A stretch of 64,000 nucleotides of DNA from an uncultured Bdellovibrionales bacterium (lineage in GTDB: Bacteria > Patescibacteriota > Minisyncoccia > Moranbacterales > UBA1568): contig CAZBFG010000001.1 in NCBI GenBank assembly GCA_964491155.1, positions 4,604 through 68,603 of the forward strand. Reading direction: 5' to 3'. Shown here in pieces: positions 6,008 to 62,699 of this stretch. Position 1 is the first letter of the stretch. Every line of letters starts with the position of its first letter. The position numbers and the translations under genes were made by a program. The notes under the pieces were generated by a model. That model did not search any database and was not told the DNA's origin. It was given only the letters and a program-made list of their open reading frames with translations.

Positions 6008-7234
6008 CTATTTTTTGGCTTGTATAAGGGAAGAATAGAGGTCGAGAATGGCCTTGAGATAGGTATGTTCGTCAAGCGACAAAACACTGCTCCGAGCATT
6101 TTCTTGCAAAGTTATTATTGGGACAGTCTGTAAAAATTGTATTTTTTCGGCCAAATCATGAGCATCACCCGGAGTAAAGAGAAGTCCATTGAAACTATCC
6201 TGTACCCGCTCCGGTAAACTCCCCACTCGTGCCGCAATGACCGGCGTCCCCGAGGCCAGTGTCTCAAGGAGTGCGTAGGGCGTGTTTTCGTACCACTCTG
6301 ATGGCACCACCACCGCTCTTGCTGGCAGGAGAATTTTTTGCAGTTCATCACCGTACATCGGACCATGAAAAATCACCCTGTTCTCCAATGCCAGTTCTTT
6401 CGTCAATTGTTTCAAGCGTTCTTCCTCCGGACCAAACCCGACAACAGAAAGTGTCTCGCTATTATGCAATTCAACAAAAGCGCGAATAAGTGTAGCAATC
6501 CCTTTTTCAGCTGACAAACGCCCAAAGTATAAAAAGTTTTTCCCTGTTTTTTCCGGCAACGGTGCTGCCACATCCGGCAGTGGTACTAGCGGCTGTGGCA
6601 AAAGCATGATTGGATAAGGAAACCCCAACCGCTTATACGTATCGATGAGAAACTGACTGAGTCCAATATAGGCATCTACTTTCCCATAGGTACCAAGGAA
6701 ATCATGCAGCCATTTTTCTATGGCACACACCAAGCTTTTTCCAAAAGAATCCTTGACACAACGGTCAGCGAGACAGCGCCATCCCGAGCCGTATTCCCAA
6801 ATCTTGCCTCGTACAAAGAGACTGTAATTAGGCGAAGCCAACTTGTAATCACAGAGTGTCATTACGATAGGTACACCATGTTTTTTAAGTGCCCAGATGA
6901 TCGATGGTGAGAGCTGATGATACGTCACAAAAAGATGTGCCACATCTGGTTTGAATTCAGCTATCAGGGATTCCAGATTGCGCTTGGCCTCCGGATTCCA
7001 GATAATGTTGCGCGCCACCTTCAGTTTTTGCCACAGCGTGAGATGGTTGGCTTCTTCGTAATCCACCTGCTCCACAAAATACTTACTCCACTCGGTCGGT
7101 TCATTTTTGGGATGCGCCATAGCAAAAAAAGCCACCTCGTGACCCTGGGCTCGGAGCAATTTGGCTGTATCAAAATACAGACGCTGCGGACCAGCATACT
7201 GACGGTGATATTTGTCGATCAGGAGAACGCGCAT
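6008..7234 (-). CDS. GT4-family glycosyltransferase
   Basis: Begins MRVLLIDKY with a Glyco_trans_4-like N-terminal half; the C-terminal half has FGRLSAEKG...EWYENTPYALLETLASGTPVIA, a GT1 signature. Confidence 0.8.
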   Translation of the reverse strand: MRVLLIDKYHRQYAGPQRLYFDTAKLLRAQGHEVAFFAMAHPKNEPTEWSKYFVEQVDYEEANHLTLWQKLKVARNIIWNPEAKRNLESLIAEFKPDVAHLFVTYHQLSPSIIWALKKHGVPIVMTLCDYKLASPNYSLFVRGKIWEYGSGWRCLADRCVKDSFGKSLVCAIEKWLHDFLGTYGKVDAYIGLSQFLIDTYKRLGFPYPIMLLPQPLVPLPDVAAPLPEKTGKNFLYFGRLSAEKGIATLIRAFVELHNSETLSVVGFGPEEERLKQLTKELALENRVIFHGPMYGDELQKILLPARAVVVPSEWYENTPYALLETLASGTPVIAARVGSLPERVQDSFNGLLFTPGDAHDLAEKIQFLQTVPIITLQENARSSVLSLDEHTYLKAILDLYSSLIQAKK

Positions 7235-15420: not shown

Positions 15421-15449
15421 ATACTACCAAAAAAATGACAAATTGTCAA
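15421..15449 (-). promoter_or_regulatory. Promoter TTGACAAT-N17-TGGTAGTAT (extended -10)
   Basis: The minus strand reads ttgacaatttgtcatttttttggtagtat; the greA promoter is nearly identical. Confidence 0.5.
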
Positions 15450-15475: not shown

Positions 15476-15508
15476 GCTAAAAACCCCTTAAACAAGGGGT
15501 TTTATGGG
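15476..15508 (-). terminator. Intrinsic (bidirectional-looking) terminator
   Basis: aaaacccctt-aaac-aaggggtttt forms a stem with T-runs on the minus strand. Confidence 0.5.
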
Positions 15509-15524
15509 ATATTATATTGGACTA

Positions 15525-15694
15525 GGAAATATCTTCCCTTTTCTTACCCTTTCTTTCCGACGAACATCCCTGACTCGTTCTGCCGAACAGGGAGCTGTCT
15601 TGTACCAAGGTGTCAATCACGCTCGACTGTTACCGGCTCACTCATCACGGATGTGACCGTCGGAAACCGGAGAAAGAAAATGAAAGAATATTTC
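15525..15694. repeat. Copy 1 of a ~175-nt conserved imperfect-palindrome element (candidate structured ncRNA)
   Basis: About 85% identical to 62242-62422; nested helices (ggaaatat/atatttcc, tccgacg/cgtcgga, acatcc/ggatgt) carry compensatory changes between the copies. Confidence 0.7.
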
Positions 15695-15715
15695 CCATGC
15701 GCTTTTCAGGGCTCC

Positions 15716-49551: not shown

Positions 49552-49657
49552 GTTCTCGAGTATACCCGAAAGTCAAAATCCAGGCAACTGCAAGCCTTTT
49601 TTGAGATATTTTTTGCCTTTCTACTTTCCGTGTTTTTCTTCCAAACGTTTCAAGACG

Positions 49658-50449
49658 CTATTTTTTCGATATGTCCACATTTCGCACATAGACCGTATTG
49701 TCAGTAGCGATATCCGAATGACGATACTGACCAATTTTCACATAATGTTGATACCCGTTCAACATATTGGCTCCGGTCGCCACAAATATCGGTTCATCCA
49801 ATCCATTTAGGTACACTACTGCTTTACCGGTATCTGATTGCGACCACGTGATATCAATAGTAATCGTGTTCCAGACATTTTTCTTGAGAGGGATGGTCCC
49901 AATGGGAGTATATGCCGTCCCATACGTAAAACTGAGGATATCGTCCTTCCCGTCGTTCCCATACCCAAACAATACAGGTGGACTCTGTGACTCATGACCG
50001 TCCCACGTTTCTCCCTTGCTGATATCTGGTTGATCGTGCCACTGACCTATTACCCACCAACGATTGAGAGGGAAATCTGACGGAAATACTTCAGGTAATT
50101 TGAATTGCCAAGAATAGCGAAGGGTTTCTCCCTCATTGTATGGATAATCAATCGATATTTCTGCCCGTACTCTATCTCGCAGTTTTTTATTCTCCTGAAA
50201 AAGATTGAGGGCGAGCGAATCACCTTCTGTCTCGTGTACGATATCCACGCCTTCCATCTGAGCGATCTCGATATGTGCATATTCTATAAGCGCCTCCGAA
50301 AGAGCTGCCCGCAGATATTGCTCTTCTAGCTGCCTCGTAGCATCATCCACGGGTGAGTCGGTAGAAAGAGTGGTATTTCTCGTACCAAGATATGTGATAC
50401 CTCCCAAAAAAACTATCACCAAAAGAAAAATAATCAAATATTTTTTCAT
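49658..50449 (-). CDS. Secreted concanavalin-A-like (polysaccharide-lyase or glycanase-like) protein
   Basis: Signal anchor MKKYLIIFLLVIVFLGG; a beta-rich ~230 aa region with aromatic/Q/H/Y motifs (QWHDQP, HYVKIGQYRH) reminiscent of PL7 and heparin-lyase-I jelly-rolls; the assignment is tentative. Confidence 0.4.
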   Translation of the reverse strand: MKKYLIIFLLVIVFLGGITYLGTRNTTLSTDSPVDDATRQLEEQYLRAALSEALIEYAHIEIAQMEGVDIVHETEGDSLALNLFQENKKLRDRVRAEISIDYPYNEGETLRYSWQFKLPEVFPSDFPLNRWWVIGQWHDQPDISKGETWDGHESQSPPVLFGYGNDGKDDILSFTYGTAYTPIGTIPLKKNVWNTITIDITWSQSDTGKAVVYLNGLDEPIFVATGANMLNGYQHYVKIGQYRHSDIATDNTVYVRNVDISKK

Positions 50450-50509
50450 ATTTGTTCTTACATATTTCTTTCAGGATATCACACTTCTTTTCAGTAGACT
50501 CTAGGGAAT

Positions 50510-52225
50510 CTACTTTCCATGTTTTTCTTCCAAACGCTTCAAGACGCGAGTCACTTTCGAGAGTGCTTCTTTTTCATAGGTCGCATAGTCGGCCACTACG
50601 GACAGCTGGCCATCTTCCAAGAGATAACTCTGTGTCAATTGCAGACGTTCGAGAAACAAGCGATCATGGGTCACCAACAAAATCGTACCGGGGTAGAGAG
50701 CGAGCGACTCCTCTAGCGCCTCAATGGCTTCAAGGTCGAGATGATTGGTCGGTTCATCGAGAACCAAGACATTGGCGTGCAGCATCGAGAGGAGAGCGAG
50801 GATGAGTCGCACGCGTTCGCCCGGACTCAGGTATTTGATCTTGTCATCGAGCACATCCGGTGAAAACTGAAACTCGGTGAGCTGCAGTGCTACCTCGTAA
50901 GCATCGAAATTCATCAGACGTTTTTTGAACAACTCACGCGGTGTCAGCGCCTGAGAAATATTTTCGTGTTCCTGCATCAAGTATCCAAAAACAATCTGCT
51001 TCCCACAGACGAGCTCTCCTTCCAATGGCGGAAGCGTCCCGGTGATGGTCTGGAGCAGGGTCGATTTGCCCACGCCGTTGTTGCCCAAGATAGCAATACG
51101 CGCCCCGAGCGGAATCTCAAGGTCGATAGGTCCACCCTGAAATGGCTTGGTTCCACCCTTTTTTTCAGCATACCCAAACACCAATTTTTTCAAAAAGATG
51201 CTACTGTCTTCATTTTTTTCCGTCGTCAGAACAATATCAAGCGGTGGTCGCTCCAGTGGTCGTTCGACGCCATCTAGGCGCTTCTCGCGACCCTGCAGAG
51301 CCGTAGCCGCGCCATCAAACTTGCGGATAGCGCGCTCTTTCTTGAAGTTGGCCGTTAGTTTGTCATGATCTGGCGTTTTTCGTTCCTTCACTCGCACCAC
51401 CCATTCTTTCTTTTCATCAATAGACTCAAACAAACGCTCACGCTCGGCCTCTTGCATGCGATACTGTTCTTTATGTTTTCGAAACGCATGTGCCTTCATT
51501 TCGGCAAATTCACTCCAACCACCGGTGTACATAACGGCTTCGCGCTTGAACCAATCAATCTCCACTACTTTCTTCACCACATGATCGAGAAAGCGCCGGT
51601 CATGAGACGCGATGAGACACGTCGCTTTGGAACGACGCAAATAATTCTCGAGCCAGAGGAGAGCCGGCAGGTCGAGGTTGTTGGTCGGCTCATCAAGGAG
51701 CAAGATATCGACACCACGGAGCAATACTCCGGCCAATGCCGCCTTGCGTTTCTCACCGCCAGACAGTTCCGAGAGCGGACGCCTCAGTCCAACATGCGAA
51801 AGAAACAATCCTTCCAAAATACTTTTTGCCTTCCGTTCAAAGTCATAGCCGCCCAAACGTTCGTAGTCATGCTGCACCAACTCGAACTGTGCGAGTATCG
51901 CCTCTTCATCCAAATTTTTTTCCAAACGCTTCATTTCTTTTTCCAGTTCCGCCAAGCCCGCCATGCGCCGCAAGTATTCAATCAGCGTTTCATCCGGCAG
52001 CGCTCCCACTTCCTGTGGCAGATAACCAACCAGACAGCGGTTCGGCACAGTGCGCTCCCCTTTTTCAAATGTTTCCAGTCCGGCAGCAATCTTGAGGAGC
52101 GTCGACTTGCCGACACCGTTTTGTCCGACCAACGCTACTTTCTGTCCCTCGCCCAACGAAAAAGAGACCTTTTCGAGGACGCGGTGAATACCATAAATTT
52201 TCCGAATGTTTTTGAGAACGAGCAT
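50510..52225 (-). CDS. ABC-F family ATPase (tandem ABC domains with a linker; Uup/EttA-like)
   Basis: Two sets of Walker A (GQNGVGKST / GNNGVGKST), LSGGE signature and Walker B motifs; no TM helix. Confidence 0.85.
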   Translation of the reverse strand: MLVLKNIRKIYGIHRVLEKVSFSLGEGQKVALVGQNGVGKSTLLKIAAGLETFEKGERTVPNRCLVGYLPQEVGALPDETLIEYLRRMAGLAELEKEMKRLEKNLDEEAILAQFELVQHDYERLGGYDFERKAKSILEGLFLSHVGLRRPLSELSGGEKRKAALAGVLLRGVDILLLDEPTNNLDLPALLWLENYLRRSKATCLIASHDRRFLDHVVKKVVEIDWFKREAVMYTGGWSEFAEMKAHAFRKHKEQYRMQEAERERLFESIDEKKEWVVRVKERKTPDHDKLTANFKKERAIRKFDGAATALQGREKRLDGVERPLERPPLDIVLTTEKNEDSSIFLKKLVFGYAEKKGGTKPFQGGPIDLEIPLGARIAILGNNGVGKSTLLQTITGTLPPLEGELVCGKQIVFGYLMQEHENISQALTPRELFKKRLMNFDAYEVALQLTEFQFSPDVLDDKIKYLSPGERVRLILALLSMLHANVLVLDEPTNHLDLEAIEALEESLALYPGTILLVTHDRLFLERLQLTQSYLLEDGQLSVVADYATYEKEALSKVTRVLKRLEEKHGK

Positions 52226-62184: not shown

Positions 62185-62241
62185 AAGCTATTTCTTTTCT
62201 AAAGTAAAAAATTCGTTTATCATTGTTATTCGGTGTTTCTC

Positions 62242-62422
62242 GAAAATACTTTCCATTTTCTTACCCTTTCGTGGCCGTCGAACATTTCTGACTCGCTGCA
62301 CCGAACAGGGAGCTGTCCTGTACCAAGTCGTCAGTCACGCTCGACTGTTACCGGTACGCTCATCAAAAATGTTACCGACGGCACCCGGAGAAAGAAAATG
62401 AAAAGTATTTCCAAGAAACTGT
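62242..62422. repeat. Copy 2 of the ~175-nt conserved imperfect-palindrome element (candidate structured ncRNA)
   Basis: Aligns over its whole length with 15525-15694; helix partners change co-ordinately (gccgtcg/cgacggc versus tccgacg/cgtcgga, and acattt/aaatgt versus acatcc/ggatgt). Confidence 0.7.
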
Positions 62423-62699
62423 TCAAACAGACACTATTTCATCAACAAACGTTTGTTTCCTCTAGAAACTTCCAAGCAAGAATCTTTCAAAGTAACTTCT
62501 GAGAGCCCGCACGGGCACGGTTTTTTCGAAGAAAAAGAGTGCGGGCATAAGGGTAGGGCGCTTCGCCACGCCGGGGCGAGCGACCGGTACTTTGGAAGGT
62601 TGCTTGCTTGGGAAGTTTCTACATTTTATAAAGGAAAGTCTTCATTGCAGAAGCACTCAAATAACATCCCAAAAACAAACAGTCCTTCTAGTCTAACAC

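What the first reader, a model, noticed from the sequence alone, without database searches (positions are those of the whole stretch)
15525..15694. A ~175-nt element present twice, with compensatory base changes in three nested helices: a candidate novel structured ncRNA
Regions 15525-15694 and 62242-62422 align end-to-end at about 85% identity, and neither copy encodes a conserved peptide. Three long-range pairings are preserved by co-ordinated substitutions. The outer stem is ggaaatat/atatttcc in copy 1 and gaaaatac/gtatttcc in copy 2. The second helix is tccgacg/cgtcgga versus gccgtcg/cgacggc, an A-T swapped for T-A on both strands. The third helix is acatcc/ggatgt versus acattt/aaatgt. Two further inner pairings (ccgaacag/ctgtt..cgg and gagc/gctc) and an apical cttg-tac-caag hairpin are identical in both copies. 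Covariation of this kind is the classical signature of selection on secondary structure; simple duplication would not produce it. The fold is a long irregular rod with internal loops, which resembles 6S-like or ERIC-like RNAs, although no known family motif was recognised. In copy 2 a single A.C mismatch on the plus strand becomes G.U on the minus strand, which weakly favours minus-strand transcription. Copy 1 lies between the rseP stop and a terminator hairpin; copy 2 lies in a 566-nt recJ-dnaJ spacer.
Basis: seen in the sequence. Interest (0 to 1): 0.85.

Follow-up and report, generated by a model that had tools for sequence, protein, structure and literature searches.

The report
Mobile hairpin repeat of Moranbacteria genomes
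The two look-alike 180-base stretches are copies of a previously undescribed repeat family of Moranbacteria (candidate-phyla bacteria) that folds into a long hairpin. The fold is kept by matched base changes, but the element comes and goes between sister genomes like a small mobile element, so it is not a single fixed RNA gene.

Summary
Window 15522-15698 and 62238-62416 are two copies (~86% identical) of a ~178-nt element that folds as an irregular rod. Twelve base pairs differ on both sides between them and stay paired.

With 25 distinct copies from Moranbacteria genomes and metagenomes, covariation is strong: 93% of cells paired, 32 of 56 pairs with double changes, 0 of 500 shuffles as high. 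It also holds on a structure-blind alignment. G.U outnumbers A.C about 7:1 on the window's minus strand, so the fold belongs to that strand.

It is not a single-locus ncRNA gene. Copy density is about one per 25 kb. Copies lie in either orientation relative to neighbouring genes and often fill the whole intergenic gap. No Rfam family, promoter or transposase was found.

Copy 1 is a ~191-nt insertion right after the rseP stop. It is absent from relatives with 95, 86, 80 and 79% identical RseP. Two other spacers are filled, empty or oppositely filled in different relatives.

Terminal stems are copy-specific, and no target-site duplication is seen, so it fails the classical MITE test.

Best reading: a lineage-specific mobile structured repeat, analogous to ERIC or bcr1. 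I infer, but have not shown, that it acts as a long RNA hairpin in 3' UTRs and intercistronic spacers.

The parts
15522..15698 (-). Copy 1 of the ~178-nt rod element ('rod1')
   Evidence: Covariance model hit of 186.5 bits, E 4e-31. Minus-strand fold -76.7 kcal/mol, z -7.3.
15699..15715 (-). 17-nt unpaired 5' tail between the rseP stop codon and the rod. It is part of the DNA that relatives lack, so it probably belongs to the insertion.
   Evidence: Alignment A6 with four relatives that lack the element. The whole gap relative to the L046 empty site is about 15525-15715.
15571..15647 (-). Sequence-conserved core of copy 1. It holds the tandem G.A internal loop (UGAUGAG opposite CGAGUCA), two of the three near-invariant G.U pairs (the third lies just outside, between 15564 and 15655), a bulged U, a UC/CC loop and the apical hairpin.
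   Evidence: Invariant columns in A2/A3. Per-pair table.
62238..62416 (-). Copy 2 of rod1, 53 nt upstream of the recJ start codon
   Evidence: Covariance model hit of 187.6 bits, E 2.5e-31. Minus-strand fold -89.2 kcal/mol, z -9.7.
62289..62365 (-). Conserved core of copy 2
   Evidence: Same columns as the copy 1 core.
62417..62460 (-). Linker between rod2 and rod1 in the composite form. It holds the CAAACGTTTG palindrome and a small hairpin whose sequence varies between copies.
   Evidence: Alignment of composite copies.
62461..62625 (-). 'Rod2', a second and different structured module (branched rod) that precedes rod1 in a subfamily of copies
   Evidence: Fold of the 411-nt composite, -165 kcal/mol, z -8.7. 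Seven homologues, with 14 of 52 pairs changed on both sides. Found in dnaJ-recJ spacers of relatives in either orientation.
15484..15498 (-). Context, not part of the element: the intrinsic terminator of the rseP transcription unit. It places copy 1 inside the 3' UTR.
   Evidence: A similar terminator is present in relative L046.
15421..15449 (-). Context, not part of the element: promoter TTGACA-17-TAGTAT of the next gene, with its TTGACA box invariant and its second hexamer near-identical in five genomes

Best explanation
Rod1 is a member of a lineage-specific family of small structured repeats in Candidatus Moranbacteria. These repeats are mobile or once were.

Each copy has three parts:
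- a sequence-conserved core of about 80 nt
- moderately conserved pyrimidine-rich (5') and purine-rich (3') arms
- an outermost stem of 8-17 bp whose sequence is unique to each copy but stays complementary

Shown:
- It is multi-copy.
- It is gained or lost between close relatives.
- It lands in intergenic spacers in either orientation.
- It carries no gene and no promoter.
- Its hairpin is maintained by compensatory change on one particular strand.

Inferred: it works like ERIC, REP or bcr1 repeats. When the flanking operon is transcribed, the element becomes a roughly 85-bp irregular RNA duplex in a 3' UTR (copy 1, between the rseP stop and its terminator) or in an intercistronic or 5' spacer (copy 2, before recJ). 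There it would act as a processing or stability determinant, for example a double-strand-specific RNase target or an exonuclease block. The conserved tandem G.A and G.U core would be the part recognised by a protein. How it moves is not known.
For: **Family and spread.** The genome scan found 12 true copies in Moranbacteria MAGs. The metagenome scan, keyed on the other arm, found about 15 loci with true copies, some of them duplicates of each other or of genome-scan loci. The covariance model finds 25 distinct full-length copies plus three partial or decayed ones, including a third copy on the same contig just outside the window (L001:3218-3395).

**Covariation.**
- Model alignment: 92.9% of cells paired; 32 of 56 pairs changed on both sides, against 20.8 +/- 1.8 in shuffles and 11-19 when partners are slid; 0 of 500 shuffles as high.
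- Structure-blind MAFFT alignment: 90.6% paired; 26 of 56 pairs against 14.9 +/- 2.1; 0 of 500.

**Strand specificity.** There are 168 G.U against 25 A.C.
- Copy-specific outer stem: 20 against 5.
- Copies sense to their neighbours: 50 against 7. Antisense copies: 63 against 10.

**Mobility.**
- The rseP 3' spacer is 311 nt here. It is 126-138 nt and element-free in relatives with 95, 86, 80 and 79% RseP identity. There are no copies in 117 kb of sequence fetched from those relatives, part of it redundant (about 74 kb distinct).
- The dnaJ-recJ spacer is filled in L050 and lacks rod1 in L051, L052 and L053.
- The MurJ-LepA spacer is filled at different points and in opposite orientations in L001 and L050. 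It lacks rod1 in L051 (967 nt) and is only 81 and 58 nt in L052 and L053.

**Retention with in-situ compensation.** L014 and L025 share homologous outer stems and flanks and differ by 7 double changes. L024 and L002:1570 sit before orthologous genes (81% amino-acid identity).

**Transcription context.** Copy 1 lies upstream of the rseP terminator.

**Precedent.** ERIC is co-transcribed and affects mRNA decay. bcr1 is mobile, transcribed and keeps its fold by compensatory changes (PMC3184786).
Against: - No transcript data exist, so RNA-level action is inferred only.
- The G.U excess stays on the element's own strand even in copies that are antisense to both neighbours. A purely passive co-transcription model does not predict this. 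It points to something intrinsic to the element, such as its own transcription or a strand-specific single-stranded DNA step.
- In the copy-specific outer stem the excess is clear in sense copies (9 against 1) but weak in antisense copies (8 against 4).
- No consistent terminal inverted-repeat sequence, no target-site duplication and no partner transposase were found. The mobility mechanism is therefore open.
- Only about 8-20 kb around each hit could be read, so copy numbers per genome are lower bounds.
- Many cells in the covariation counts share ancestry and are not independent events.
Confidence: 0.6

Rival explanations
1. The functional form is a strand-specific single-stranded DNA hairpin. 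The element would be the substrate, or a relic, of an enzyme that recognises folded single-stranded DNA. Candidates are a Y1/HUH transposase of the IS200/IS605 or REP/RAYT type, or a recombinase. The fold would be kept because only foldable copies propagate, and any RNA would be incidental.
For: - There is no conserved terminal inverted repeat and no target-site duplication, as in IS200/IS605 and REP elements.
- The G.T against A.C asymmetry is tied to the element's own strand whatever the orientation of the neighbouring genes.
- Insertions occur in either orientation, and independent insertions occur in the same spacer.
- Modules flip orientation at one locus.
- Two different hairpin modules, rod2 and rod1, sit side by side. 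In L015 they flank 0.9 kb of foreign-looking GC-rich DNA, like left and right ends.
Against: - No Y1, RAYT or any other transposase gene lies near any of the ~27 copies or in the window.
- Known single-stranded-DNA transposon hairpins and REPs are 20-40 nt, not 180 nt (my own knowledge, and PMC3733652 abstract).
- Near-invariant G.U pairs and a tandem G.A loop are typical of RNA motifs.
- Compensation within orthologous copies (L014 and L025) is not expected for dead copies of a transposon.
Confidence: 0.2
2. Each copy is an independently transcribed small RNA gene. This would be a multi-copy trans-acting sRNA family, 6S-like or protein-sponge-like, with its own promoter.
For: - The fold is strand-specific and independent of the orientation of neighbouring genes.
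- The core is strongly conserved in sequence and carries non-Watson-Crick motifs.
- Copy 1 is followed by an intrinsic terminator.
Against: - No promoter-like site was found in or upstream of copy 2. For copy 1 the promoter-like matches lie downstream of the rod or on the opposite strand, none upstream on its own strand, although this organism uses a clear TTGACA-17-TAnnnT promoter.
- Upstream flanks are unrelated coding ends only 4-25 nt away.
- Most copies have no terminator after them.
- There is no match to 6S or any Rfam family even at E up to 10.
- Presence varies among close relatives.
Confidence: 0.12
3. There is no selection on structure. The palindrome is kept symmetrical by DNA-level processes such as template switching within quasi-palindromes or gene conversion between arms or between copies. 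These mimic compensatory change.
For: - Apical modules are swapped between otherwise near-identical copies (L006 and L019), so conversion between copies does occur.
- The outermost stems are largely Watson-Crick.
Against: - Templated correction would erase mismatches. Yet three G.U pairs, a tandem G.A loop, a bulged U and a UC/CC loop are near-invariant in 25 copies.
- G.U outnumbers A.C about 7:1, which a strand-symmetric DNA process does not produce.
- Outer stems are copy-specific, so they cannot come from conversion between copies.
Confidence: 0.05

Closest known systems
ERIC / IRU repeats of Enterobacteriaceae (~127-bp imperfect palindromes)
   Same: - Dispersed intergenic imperfect palindromes that fold as long RNA hairpins.
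- Found in transcribed regions next to genes in either orientation.
- Patchy between related genomes.
- Proposed to alter mRNA decay (PMC3184786).
   Different: - No sequence similarity: blastn against 5,426 E. coli genomes finds nothing.
- ERIC has defined terminal inverted repeats and TA flanks. Rod1 has copy-specific termini and no consistent duplication.
- The host is a candidate-phyla-radiation lineage.
bcr1 repeats of the Bacillus cereus group (~155 bp)
   Same: - Mobile, with a non-conserved genomic distribution.
- Transcribed, with compensatory base changes that maintain the RNA structure (PMC3184786).
- Similar size.
   Different: - bcr1 folds as two independent stem-loops and is flanked by 5-bp direct repeats.
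- Rod1 is a single rod without detectable direct repeats.
- The two share no detected homology.
Classical bacterial MITEs (Correia/NEMIS, RUP, Nezha, Chunjie)
   Same: - Under 400 bp, non-coding and multi-copy.
- Show insertion polymorphism.
- Fold into stable stem-loops.
   Different: - The defining conserved terminal inverted repeats, target-site duplication and a cognate IS were looked for and not found.
- In rod1 the centre is the most conserved part and the termini the least, which is the reverse of a MITE.
REP/BIME elements with RAYT transposases
   Same: - Extragenic palindromes at 3' ends of genes and between cistrons, in either orientation.
- No target-site duplication.
- Stabilise upstream mRNA.
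   Different: - REPs are 20-40 nt, G+C-rich and carry a conserved GTAG or CGTC head (PMC3733652 abstract).
- Rod1 is 178 nt, with no such head and no RAYT gene seen.
6S RNA (Rfam RF00013)
   Same: A rod-like RNA of about 180 nt.
   Different: - No model match even at E up to 10.
- No large central bubble.
- Multi-copy, insertion-polymorphic and without a promoter.

Membership tests
Classical MITE | Short (<400 bp), non-coding, many copies per genome | tested here: met
   - The element is 175-199 nt.
- There are 3 copies in about 72 kb of this contig, at least 5 in MAG JAYVWV01 and at least 3 in CAZPXK01.
- No conserved peptide: the open frames differ between copies.
Classical MITE | Terminal inverted repeats of conserved sequence shared by all copies and by a parent IS | tested here: not met
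   The outermost 8-17 bp are complementary but differ in sequence in nearly every non-orthologous copy. Up to 6 pair types occur per column.
Classical MITE | Target-site duplication (direct repeat) flanking each copy | tested here: not met
   Flanks of 25 copies show no consistent direct repeat. The only hint is TAG on both sides of copy 1.
Classical MITE | Presence/absence polymorphism at orthologous sites | tested here: met
   - rseP 3' site: filled here, empty in four relatives.
- dnaJ-recJ and MurJ-LepA spacers: variously filled, without rod1 or oppositely filled.
Classical MITE | A cognate transposase-encoding IS with the same ends in the same genomes | tested here: inconclusive
   No transposase was found in the annotated two-thirds of the window (about 5.7-26.9 kb and 31.8-64 kb) or in the gene-annotated flanks of several copies. 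Whole genomes could not be scanned.
ERIC | Sequence homology to the 127-bp ERIC consensus | tested here: not met
   No blastn match (word size 11) in 20,395 E. coli records, which carry ERIC copies.
ERIC-like behaviour (works like, not membership) | Lies inside transcription units and folds as a long RNA hairpin | tested here: inconclusive
   - Copy 1 lies between the stop codon and the terminator.
- Several copies fill intercistronic gaps of 4-50 nt.
- The fold is supported.
- Transcription itself is not testable here.
6S RNA | Match to the RF00013 covariance model; usually one or two loci per genome; central bubble | tested here: not met
   No hit at E up to 10 on either copy. The consensus fold has only small internal loops. 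The element is multi-copy.
Hammerhead ribozyme | Three-way junction with a CUGAUGA ... GAAA ... UH core | tested here: not met
   - UGAUGAG and CGAGUC are present, but they face each other in a two-way internal loop as tandem G.A pairs.
- There is no stem III and no GAAA.
- The position that would be C3 varies.
- No Rfam ribozyme hit.
REP/BIME | 20-40-nt G+C-rich palindrome with a GTAG/CGTC head and an associated RAYT gene | tested here: not met
   The length is 178 nt and G+C is 42-55%. There is no conserved head and no Y1 transposase in the loci.
Integron attC | Conserved R''/L''-L'/R' boxes (RYYYAAC ... GTTRRRY) at the base of a variable hairpin, in cassette arrays | tested here: not met
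   The conservation pattern is the reverse: the base is variable and the centre conserved. The neighbours are housekeeping genes, not cassettes.

The most novel reading that the evidence does not exclude
Rod1 is a genuine strand-specific functional RNA module that spreads through Moranbacteria genomes by a mechanism using neither terminal inverted repeats nor target duplications. Examples would be an RNA or single-strand intermediate, or insertion into pre-existing sites. Its conserved G.A/G.U core would bind a dedicated protein, and its free-to-vary outer stem would only need to pair. That would make it a mobile RNA-level regulatory cassette in genomes otherwise thought to be streamlined and repeat-poor. 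The polarity of the fold, which does not depend on the orientation of neighbouring genes, would reflect the element's own expression.
Probability: 0.15. Interest if true: 0.7.

Novelty: new variant of a known kind. Interest (0 to 1): 0.42.

Why it matters
Candidate-phyla-radiation bacteria have small, tightly packed genomes. Dispersed repeats and non-coding RNAs in them are barely described: I found no paper on such repeats in Patescibacteria, and Rfam 15 has no match.

This family shows three things:
- Even these genomes host an invasive structured element at roughly one copy per 25 kb in some lineages and none in close relatives.
- The element is a ready marker for strain-level differences and a likely cause of assembly breaks and spurious small-ORF calls.
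- It is a clean natural experiment on hairpin maintenance, with a conserved core, a stem constrained only to pair, and a strand polarity independent of host transcription.

For genome scanning the lesson is practical. Textbook covariation between two copies inside one genome can come from a mobile repeat, so presence or absence in sister genomes should be checked before calling an RNA gene.

Tried and rejected
- **Rfam.** The gathering scan of the whole window found only two tRNAs. Permissive scans of both loci found only generic hairpin or terminator noise. Scans of five related loci found nothing.
- **Hammerhead and K-turn readings of UGAUGAG/CGAGUCA.** Rejected. The two strands form UGAU/GUCA pairs plus tandem G.A in a continuous helix, with no 3-nt bulge and no third stem.
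- **Own promoter.** No sigma-70-like site lies in the dnaJ-recJ spacer. Near copy 1 the scan found four promoter-like matches, but none lies upstream of the rod on its own strand: the strongest is the next gene's promoter downstream of it. Reading the consensus by eye on both strands also found none. A loose TGTTTGAAA-like motif upstream of some copies is not general.
- **Terminator function.** No U-run follows the rod in most copies, and copy 1 has a separate terminator.
- **Target-site duplication or conserved terminal repeats.** None found.
- **Insertion into pre-existing host hairpins as the source of the copy-specific stems.** The L046 empty site shows no hairpin at the insertion point, and the outer stems are A+T-rich rather than terminator-like. 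Not supported, but not excluded.
- **Phage or plasmid origin.** No blastn hit in 50,697 phage or 72,556 plasmid records. Ten 16-mer matches in viral contigs are chance, with no model hit.
- **Protein coding.** No conserved frame.
- **In-situ inversion as the explanation for opposite orientations in the MurJ-LepA spacer.** Rejected. The flanks and insertion points differ, so these are independent insertions.
- **The 195-aa GC-rich ORF between rod2 and rod1 in L015 as a candidate transposase.** No Pfam, NCBIfam or PHROG family matches.
- **Literature searches.** Searches for repeats in Moranbacteria or Patescibacteria found nothing relevant.

Full report
**1. Observation**

Window 15525-15694 and 62242-62422 are two copies of one element.
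- They align end to end at 86% column identity.
- They are the only copies in the 64-kb window.
- Each folds as a single irregular rod of about 85 pairs.

| Strand | Copy 1 | Copy 2 |
|---|---|---|
| Minus | -76.7 kcal/mol (z -7.3) | -89.2 kcal/mol (z -9.7) |
| Plus | -61.5 kcal/mol | -62.2 kcal/mol |

On the final alignment the two copies differ on both sides, and stay paired, at 12 of 56 pairs, with one break. The only slip is that the apical hairpin is not identical in the two copies.

All neighbouring genes are on the minus strand.
- Copy 1 order: rseP (16885->15716), element, intrinsic terminator (15498-15484), promoter TTGACA-17-TAGTAT (15449-15421), next gene.
- Copy 2 order: dnaJ (63839->62751), 566-nt spacer holding the element (62416->62238), recJ (62184->60469).

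**2. Source and relatives**

The window is part of a 117-kb metagenome contig (ENA ERZ27247837, k141_762857). Its genes are closest to Candidatus Moranbacteria.

Two independent scans found more copies.
- An exact scan of one genome per species with a 19-mer from the 3' side of the core gave 14 hits. Twelve were true copies, all in Moranbacteria-type MAGs, with 4 in one MAG and 3 in another.
- A scan of JGI metagenomes with a degenerate pattern from the opposite side of the core gave 26 hits, of which about 15 were true copies, some of them duplicates. This second scan gives a view of the first block that does not depend on the first key. That block varies, and it varies with compensation: for example AACAG/CUGUU becomes AACGG/CCGUU, and CCGG/CGG becomes UCGG/CGA.

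A covariance model built from 13 copies finds 25 distinct full-length copies plus three partial or decayed ones. These include a third copy on the window's own contig 6.5 kb beyond the window end (L001:3218-3395, MurJ-LepA spacer) and a second copy in L002.

Nothing was found in Rfam 15, phage records, plasmid records, viral contigs or E. coli genomes.

**3. The fold is under selection, on one strand**

| Measure | Model alignment (27 distinct rows) | Structure-blind MAFFT alignment (13 copies) |
|---|---|---|
| Cells forming a standard pair | 92.9% (shuffles 81.0%) | 90.6% (shuffles 82.6%) |
| Pairs changed on both sides | 32 of 56 (shuffles 20.8 +/- 1.8; slid partners 11-19) | 26 of 56 (shuffles 14.9 +/- 2.1) |
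| Shuffles reaching the observed value | 0 of 500 | 0 of 500 |

The anatomy is layered.
- **Outer stem:** about 8 pairs whose sequence is different in almost every copy, with up to six pair types per column.
- **Middle:** pyrimidine-rich 5' arm against purine-rich 3' arm, with many U.G pairs.
- **Core:** about 80 nt that is nearly invariant in sequence. It contains three near-invariant G.U pairs, a tandem G.A loop (5'-UGAU-GA-G / 5'-C-GA-GUCA), a bulged U and a UC/CC loop.
- **Apical hairpin:** comes in at least three types.

G.U pairs outnumber A.C combinations, which would be G.U on the other strand.

| Region or copy set | G.U | A.C |
|---|---|---|
| All pairs | 168 | 25 |
| Copy-specific outer stem | 20 | 5 |
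| Middle | 52 | 9 |
| Core | 94 | 10 |
| Copies sense to their neighbours | 50 | 7 |
| Copies antisense to their neighbours | 63 | 10 |
| Outer stem, sense copies only | 9 | 1 |
| Outer stem, antisense copies only | 8 | 4 |

One unexpected point remains: the polarity follows the element, not the host genes.

**4. It is not a fixed gene: gain, loss and orientation**

Orientation relative to flanking genes is about half sense and half antisense. Many copies sit 4-50 nt from the neighbouring stop and start codons. They fill the spacer and leave no room for a promoter.

*The rseP 3' site.* Relatives with RseP 95, 86, 80 and 79% identical have the same gene order. Their rseP-to-next-gene spacer is 126-138 nt, against 311 nt here, and it holds no element. 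Alignment with the best-matching empty site (L046) places the inserted DNA at about 15525-15715. It lies immediately after the stop codon and consists of a 17-nt tail plus the rod. The 117 kb fetched from those relatives, part of it redundant (about 74 kb distinct), contains no copy at all.

*The other two spacers*.

| Locus (RecJ identity) | dnaJ-recJ spacer | MurJ-LepA spacer |
|---|---|---|
| Window contig | rod1 present, sense | composite rod2 + rod1 (L001:3218-3395) |
| L050 (89%) | rod1 present, sense | rod1 alone, opposite orientation, different insertion point |
| L051 (87%) | no rod1 | 967 nt, no rod1 |
| L052 (83%) | no rod1; an arm remnant of about 30 nt | 81 nt, no rod1 |
| L053 (72%) | no rod1 | 58 nt, no rod1 |

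The L001 and L050 insertions in the MurJ-LepA spacer are therefore independent events.

Some copies are old. L014 and L025 share flanks and homologous outer stems, yet differ by 7 double changes. L024 and L002:1570 lie before orthologous genes that are 81% identical. The family thus combines recent gain with long retention and compensation in place.

**5. Composite form**

In a subfamily (copy 2, L001:3218, L005, L006, L019, and variants in L003, L021 and L050), rod1 is preceded by a 44-nt linker and a second, different structured module. This is rod2, at window 62461-62625.

Rod2 or its variant is present in the dnaJ-recJ spacer of every relative examined, but its orientation differs.
- Forward: window, L050, L051.
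- Inverted: L052, L053, L006, L019.

In L015, rod2 and rod1 are separated by 0.9 kb of GC-rich DNA carrying an unassignable 195-aa ORF.

**6. What it is**

It is a lineage-specific family of mobile structured repeats, not a single-locus ncRNA gene.

Tests against defined families gave these results.
- **Classical MITE:** the size, copy-number and polymorphism criteria are met. The criteria of conserved terminal repeats and target-site duplication are not met. No cognate IS was seen. The conservation pattern (centre conserved, ends free) is the reverse of a MITE.
- **Other families:** there is no homology to ERIC. REP, attC, 6S and hammerhead definitions are not met.

In behaviour it is closest to ERIC and to bcr1 of the Bacillus cereus group. 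bcr1 is also mobile and transcribed, and it keeps its RNA fold by compensatory changes (PMC3184786).

**7. How it most likely works**

Shown: the hairpin, its strand, its maintenance, and its position inside the rseP transcription unit.

Inferred: when transcribed, it forms a long irregular RNA duplex in 3' UTRs and intercistronic spacers. There it serves as a processing or stability element, with the G.A/G.U core as the recognition site for a protein.

The main rival, at about 0.2, is that the selected form is a strand-specific single-stranded DNA hairpin used in mobilisation. That would explain the missing terminal repeats and duplications, and the polarity that ignores host genes. However, no suitable enzyme gene was seen, and the hairpin is far longer than any known substrate.

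An independent sRNA gene family (about 0.12) lacks promoters. Purely DNA-level symmetrisation (about 0.05) is contradicted by the conserved mismatches and the G.U excess.

**8. Unexplained**

- The polarity of the fold is kept in copies that are antisense to both neighbours.
- The origin of the copy-specific outer stems is unknown.
- The antisense strand is depleted of stop codons. Twenty of 25 copies have a fully open frame across the element, against 0.34 per copy expected, spread over all three frames.
- The mechanism of insertion is unknown.

**9. Verdict**

It is a new variant of a known kind of element. Interest is moderate, because of the host lineage, the unusual layered conservation and the host-independent polarity.

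Noticed in passing
window 62461-62625 (-), linker 62417-62460: A second structured repeat module ('rod2', a branched rod) lies directly upstream of copy 2. Rod2 or a variant sits in the dnaJ-recJ spacer of every relative examined. It is forward in some genomes (window, L050, L051) and inverted in others (L052, L053, L006, L019). Fourteen of 52 predicted pairs change on both sides.
   Followed up: partly
window 49620-49658 and 50509-50547: A 39-nt direct repeat (95% identical) brackets a 263-aa polysaccharide-lyase gene (49658-50449) between the ABC-ATPase gene and secD. In relative L053 the two genes are adjacent, and a decayed half copy of rod1 sits at that junction (L053:18024-18205). The arrangement looks like a gene insertion that duplicated the spacer.
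   Followed up: partly
rod1 copies, antisense strand (for example window 15504-15656 +): The strand opposite the structured one is depleted of stop codons. Twenty of 25 copies are open across the whole element in at least one frame, against 0.34 per copy in dinucleotide shuffles, and the open frames are spread over all three frames. The structured strand is open in only 2 of 25. A gene caller annotated a spurious 50-aa ORF here. The pattern recalls the in-frame Rickettsia palindromic elements, but no copy inside a gene was seen.
   Followed up: partly
L009:6394-6592, L019:934-1108, L023:2927-3125 / L050:3302-3500, L025:5207-5399: Several rod1 copies carry short G+C-rich insertions of 20-45 nt inside an arm or the apical loop. 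Some of these are themselves hairpins. This suggests a further small repeat that nests in the rods.
   Followed up: no
L015:6090-7000: In one MAG, rod2 and rod1 are separated by about 0.9 kb of G+C-rich DNA with a 195-aa ORF on the opposite strand (6197-6784). It matches no Pfam, NCBIfam or PHROG family. It could be cargo or the remnant of an autonomous element.
   Followed up: partly
window 15421-15449 (-): A canonical sigma-70-type promoter (TTGACA, 17 nt, TAGTAT with an upstream TG) has an invariant TTGACA box and a near-identical second hexamer (one variable position) in five Moranbacteria genomes whose RseP is 79-100% identical. These CPR bacteria therefore use ordinary -35/-10 promoters.
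   Followed up: partly
L001:2535-2730 (same contig, about 5.7-5.9 kb beyond the window end): A segment of about 190 nt just after murJ ends in an intrinsic terminator and is conserved in L001, L050 and L051. Relatives L052 and L053 have only a short spacer there. It has no Rfam match (E > 0.5). It is a candidate small RNA or leader.
   Followed up: partly
L003, L005, L012, L014, L015 (CAZATJ01, CAZPXK01, CAZCNN01): MAGs titled 'uncultured Bdellovibrionales' carry rod1. One of them apparently also carries a Moranbacteria-type RseP (81% identical): I infer this because the longest contig carrying P0040 has the same length, 330,622 bp, as L012's contig. The taxonomic label looks wrong.
   Followed up: partly
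L006:390-569 versus L019:934-1108: Two composite copies with near-identical flanks and arms carry different apical hairpin types (GGAUGGUCUCGAC versus UUGACACCAUGGUAC). Modules are therefore exchanged between copies.
   Followed up: no
L050:20179-20526: A bAvd gene (accessory protein of diversity-generating retroelements) lies about 8 kb downstream of recJ in a close relative. Reverse-transcriptase systems therefore occur in these genomes.
   Followed up: no
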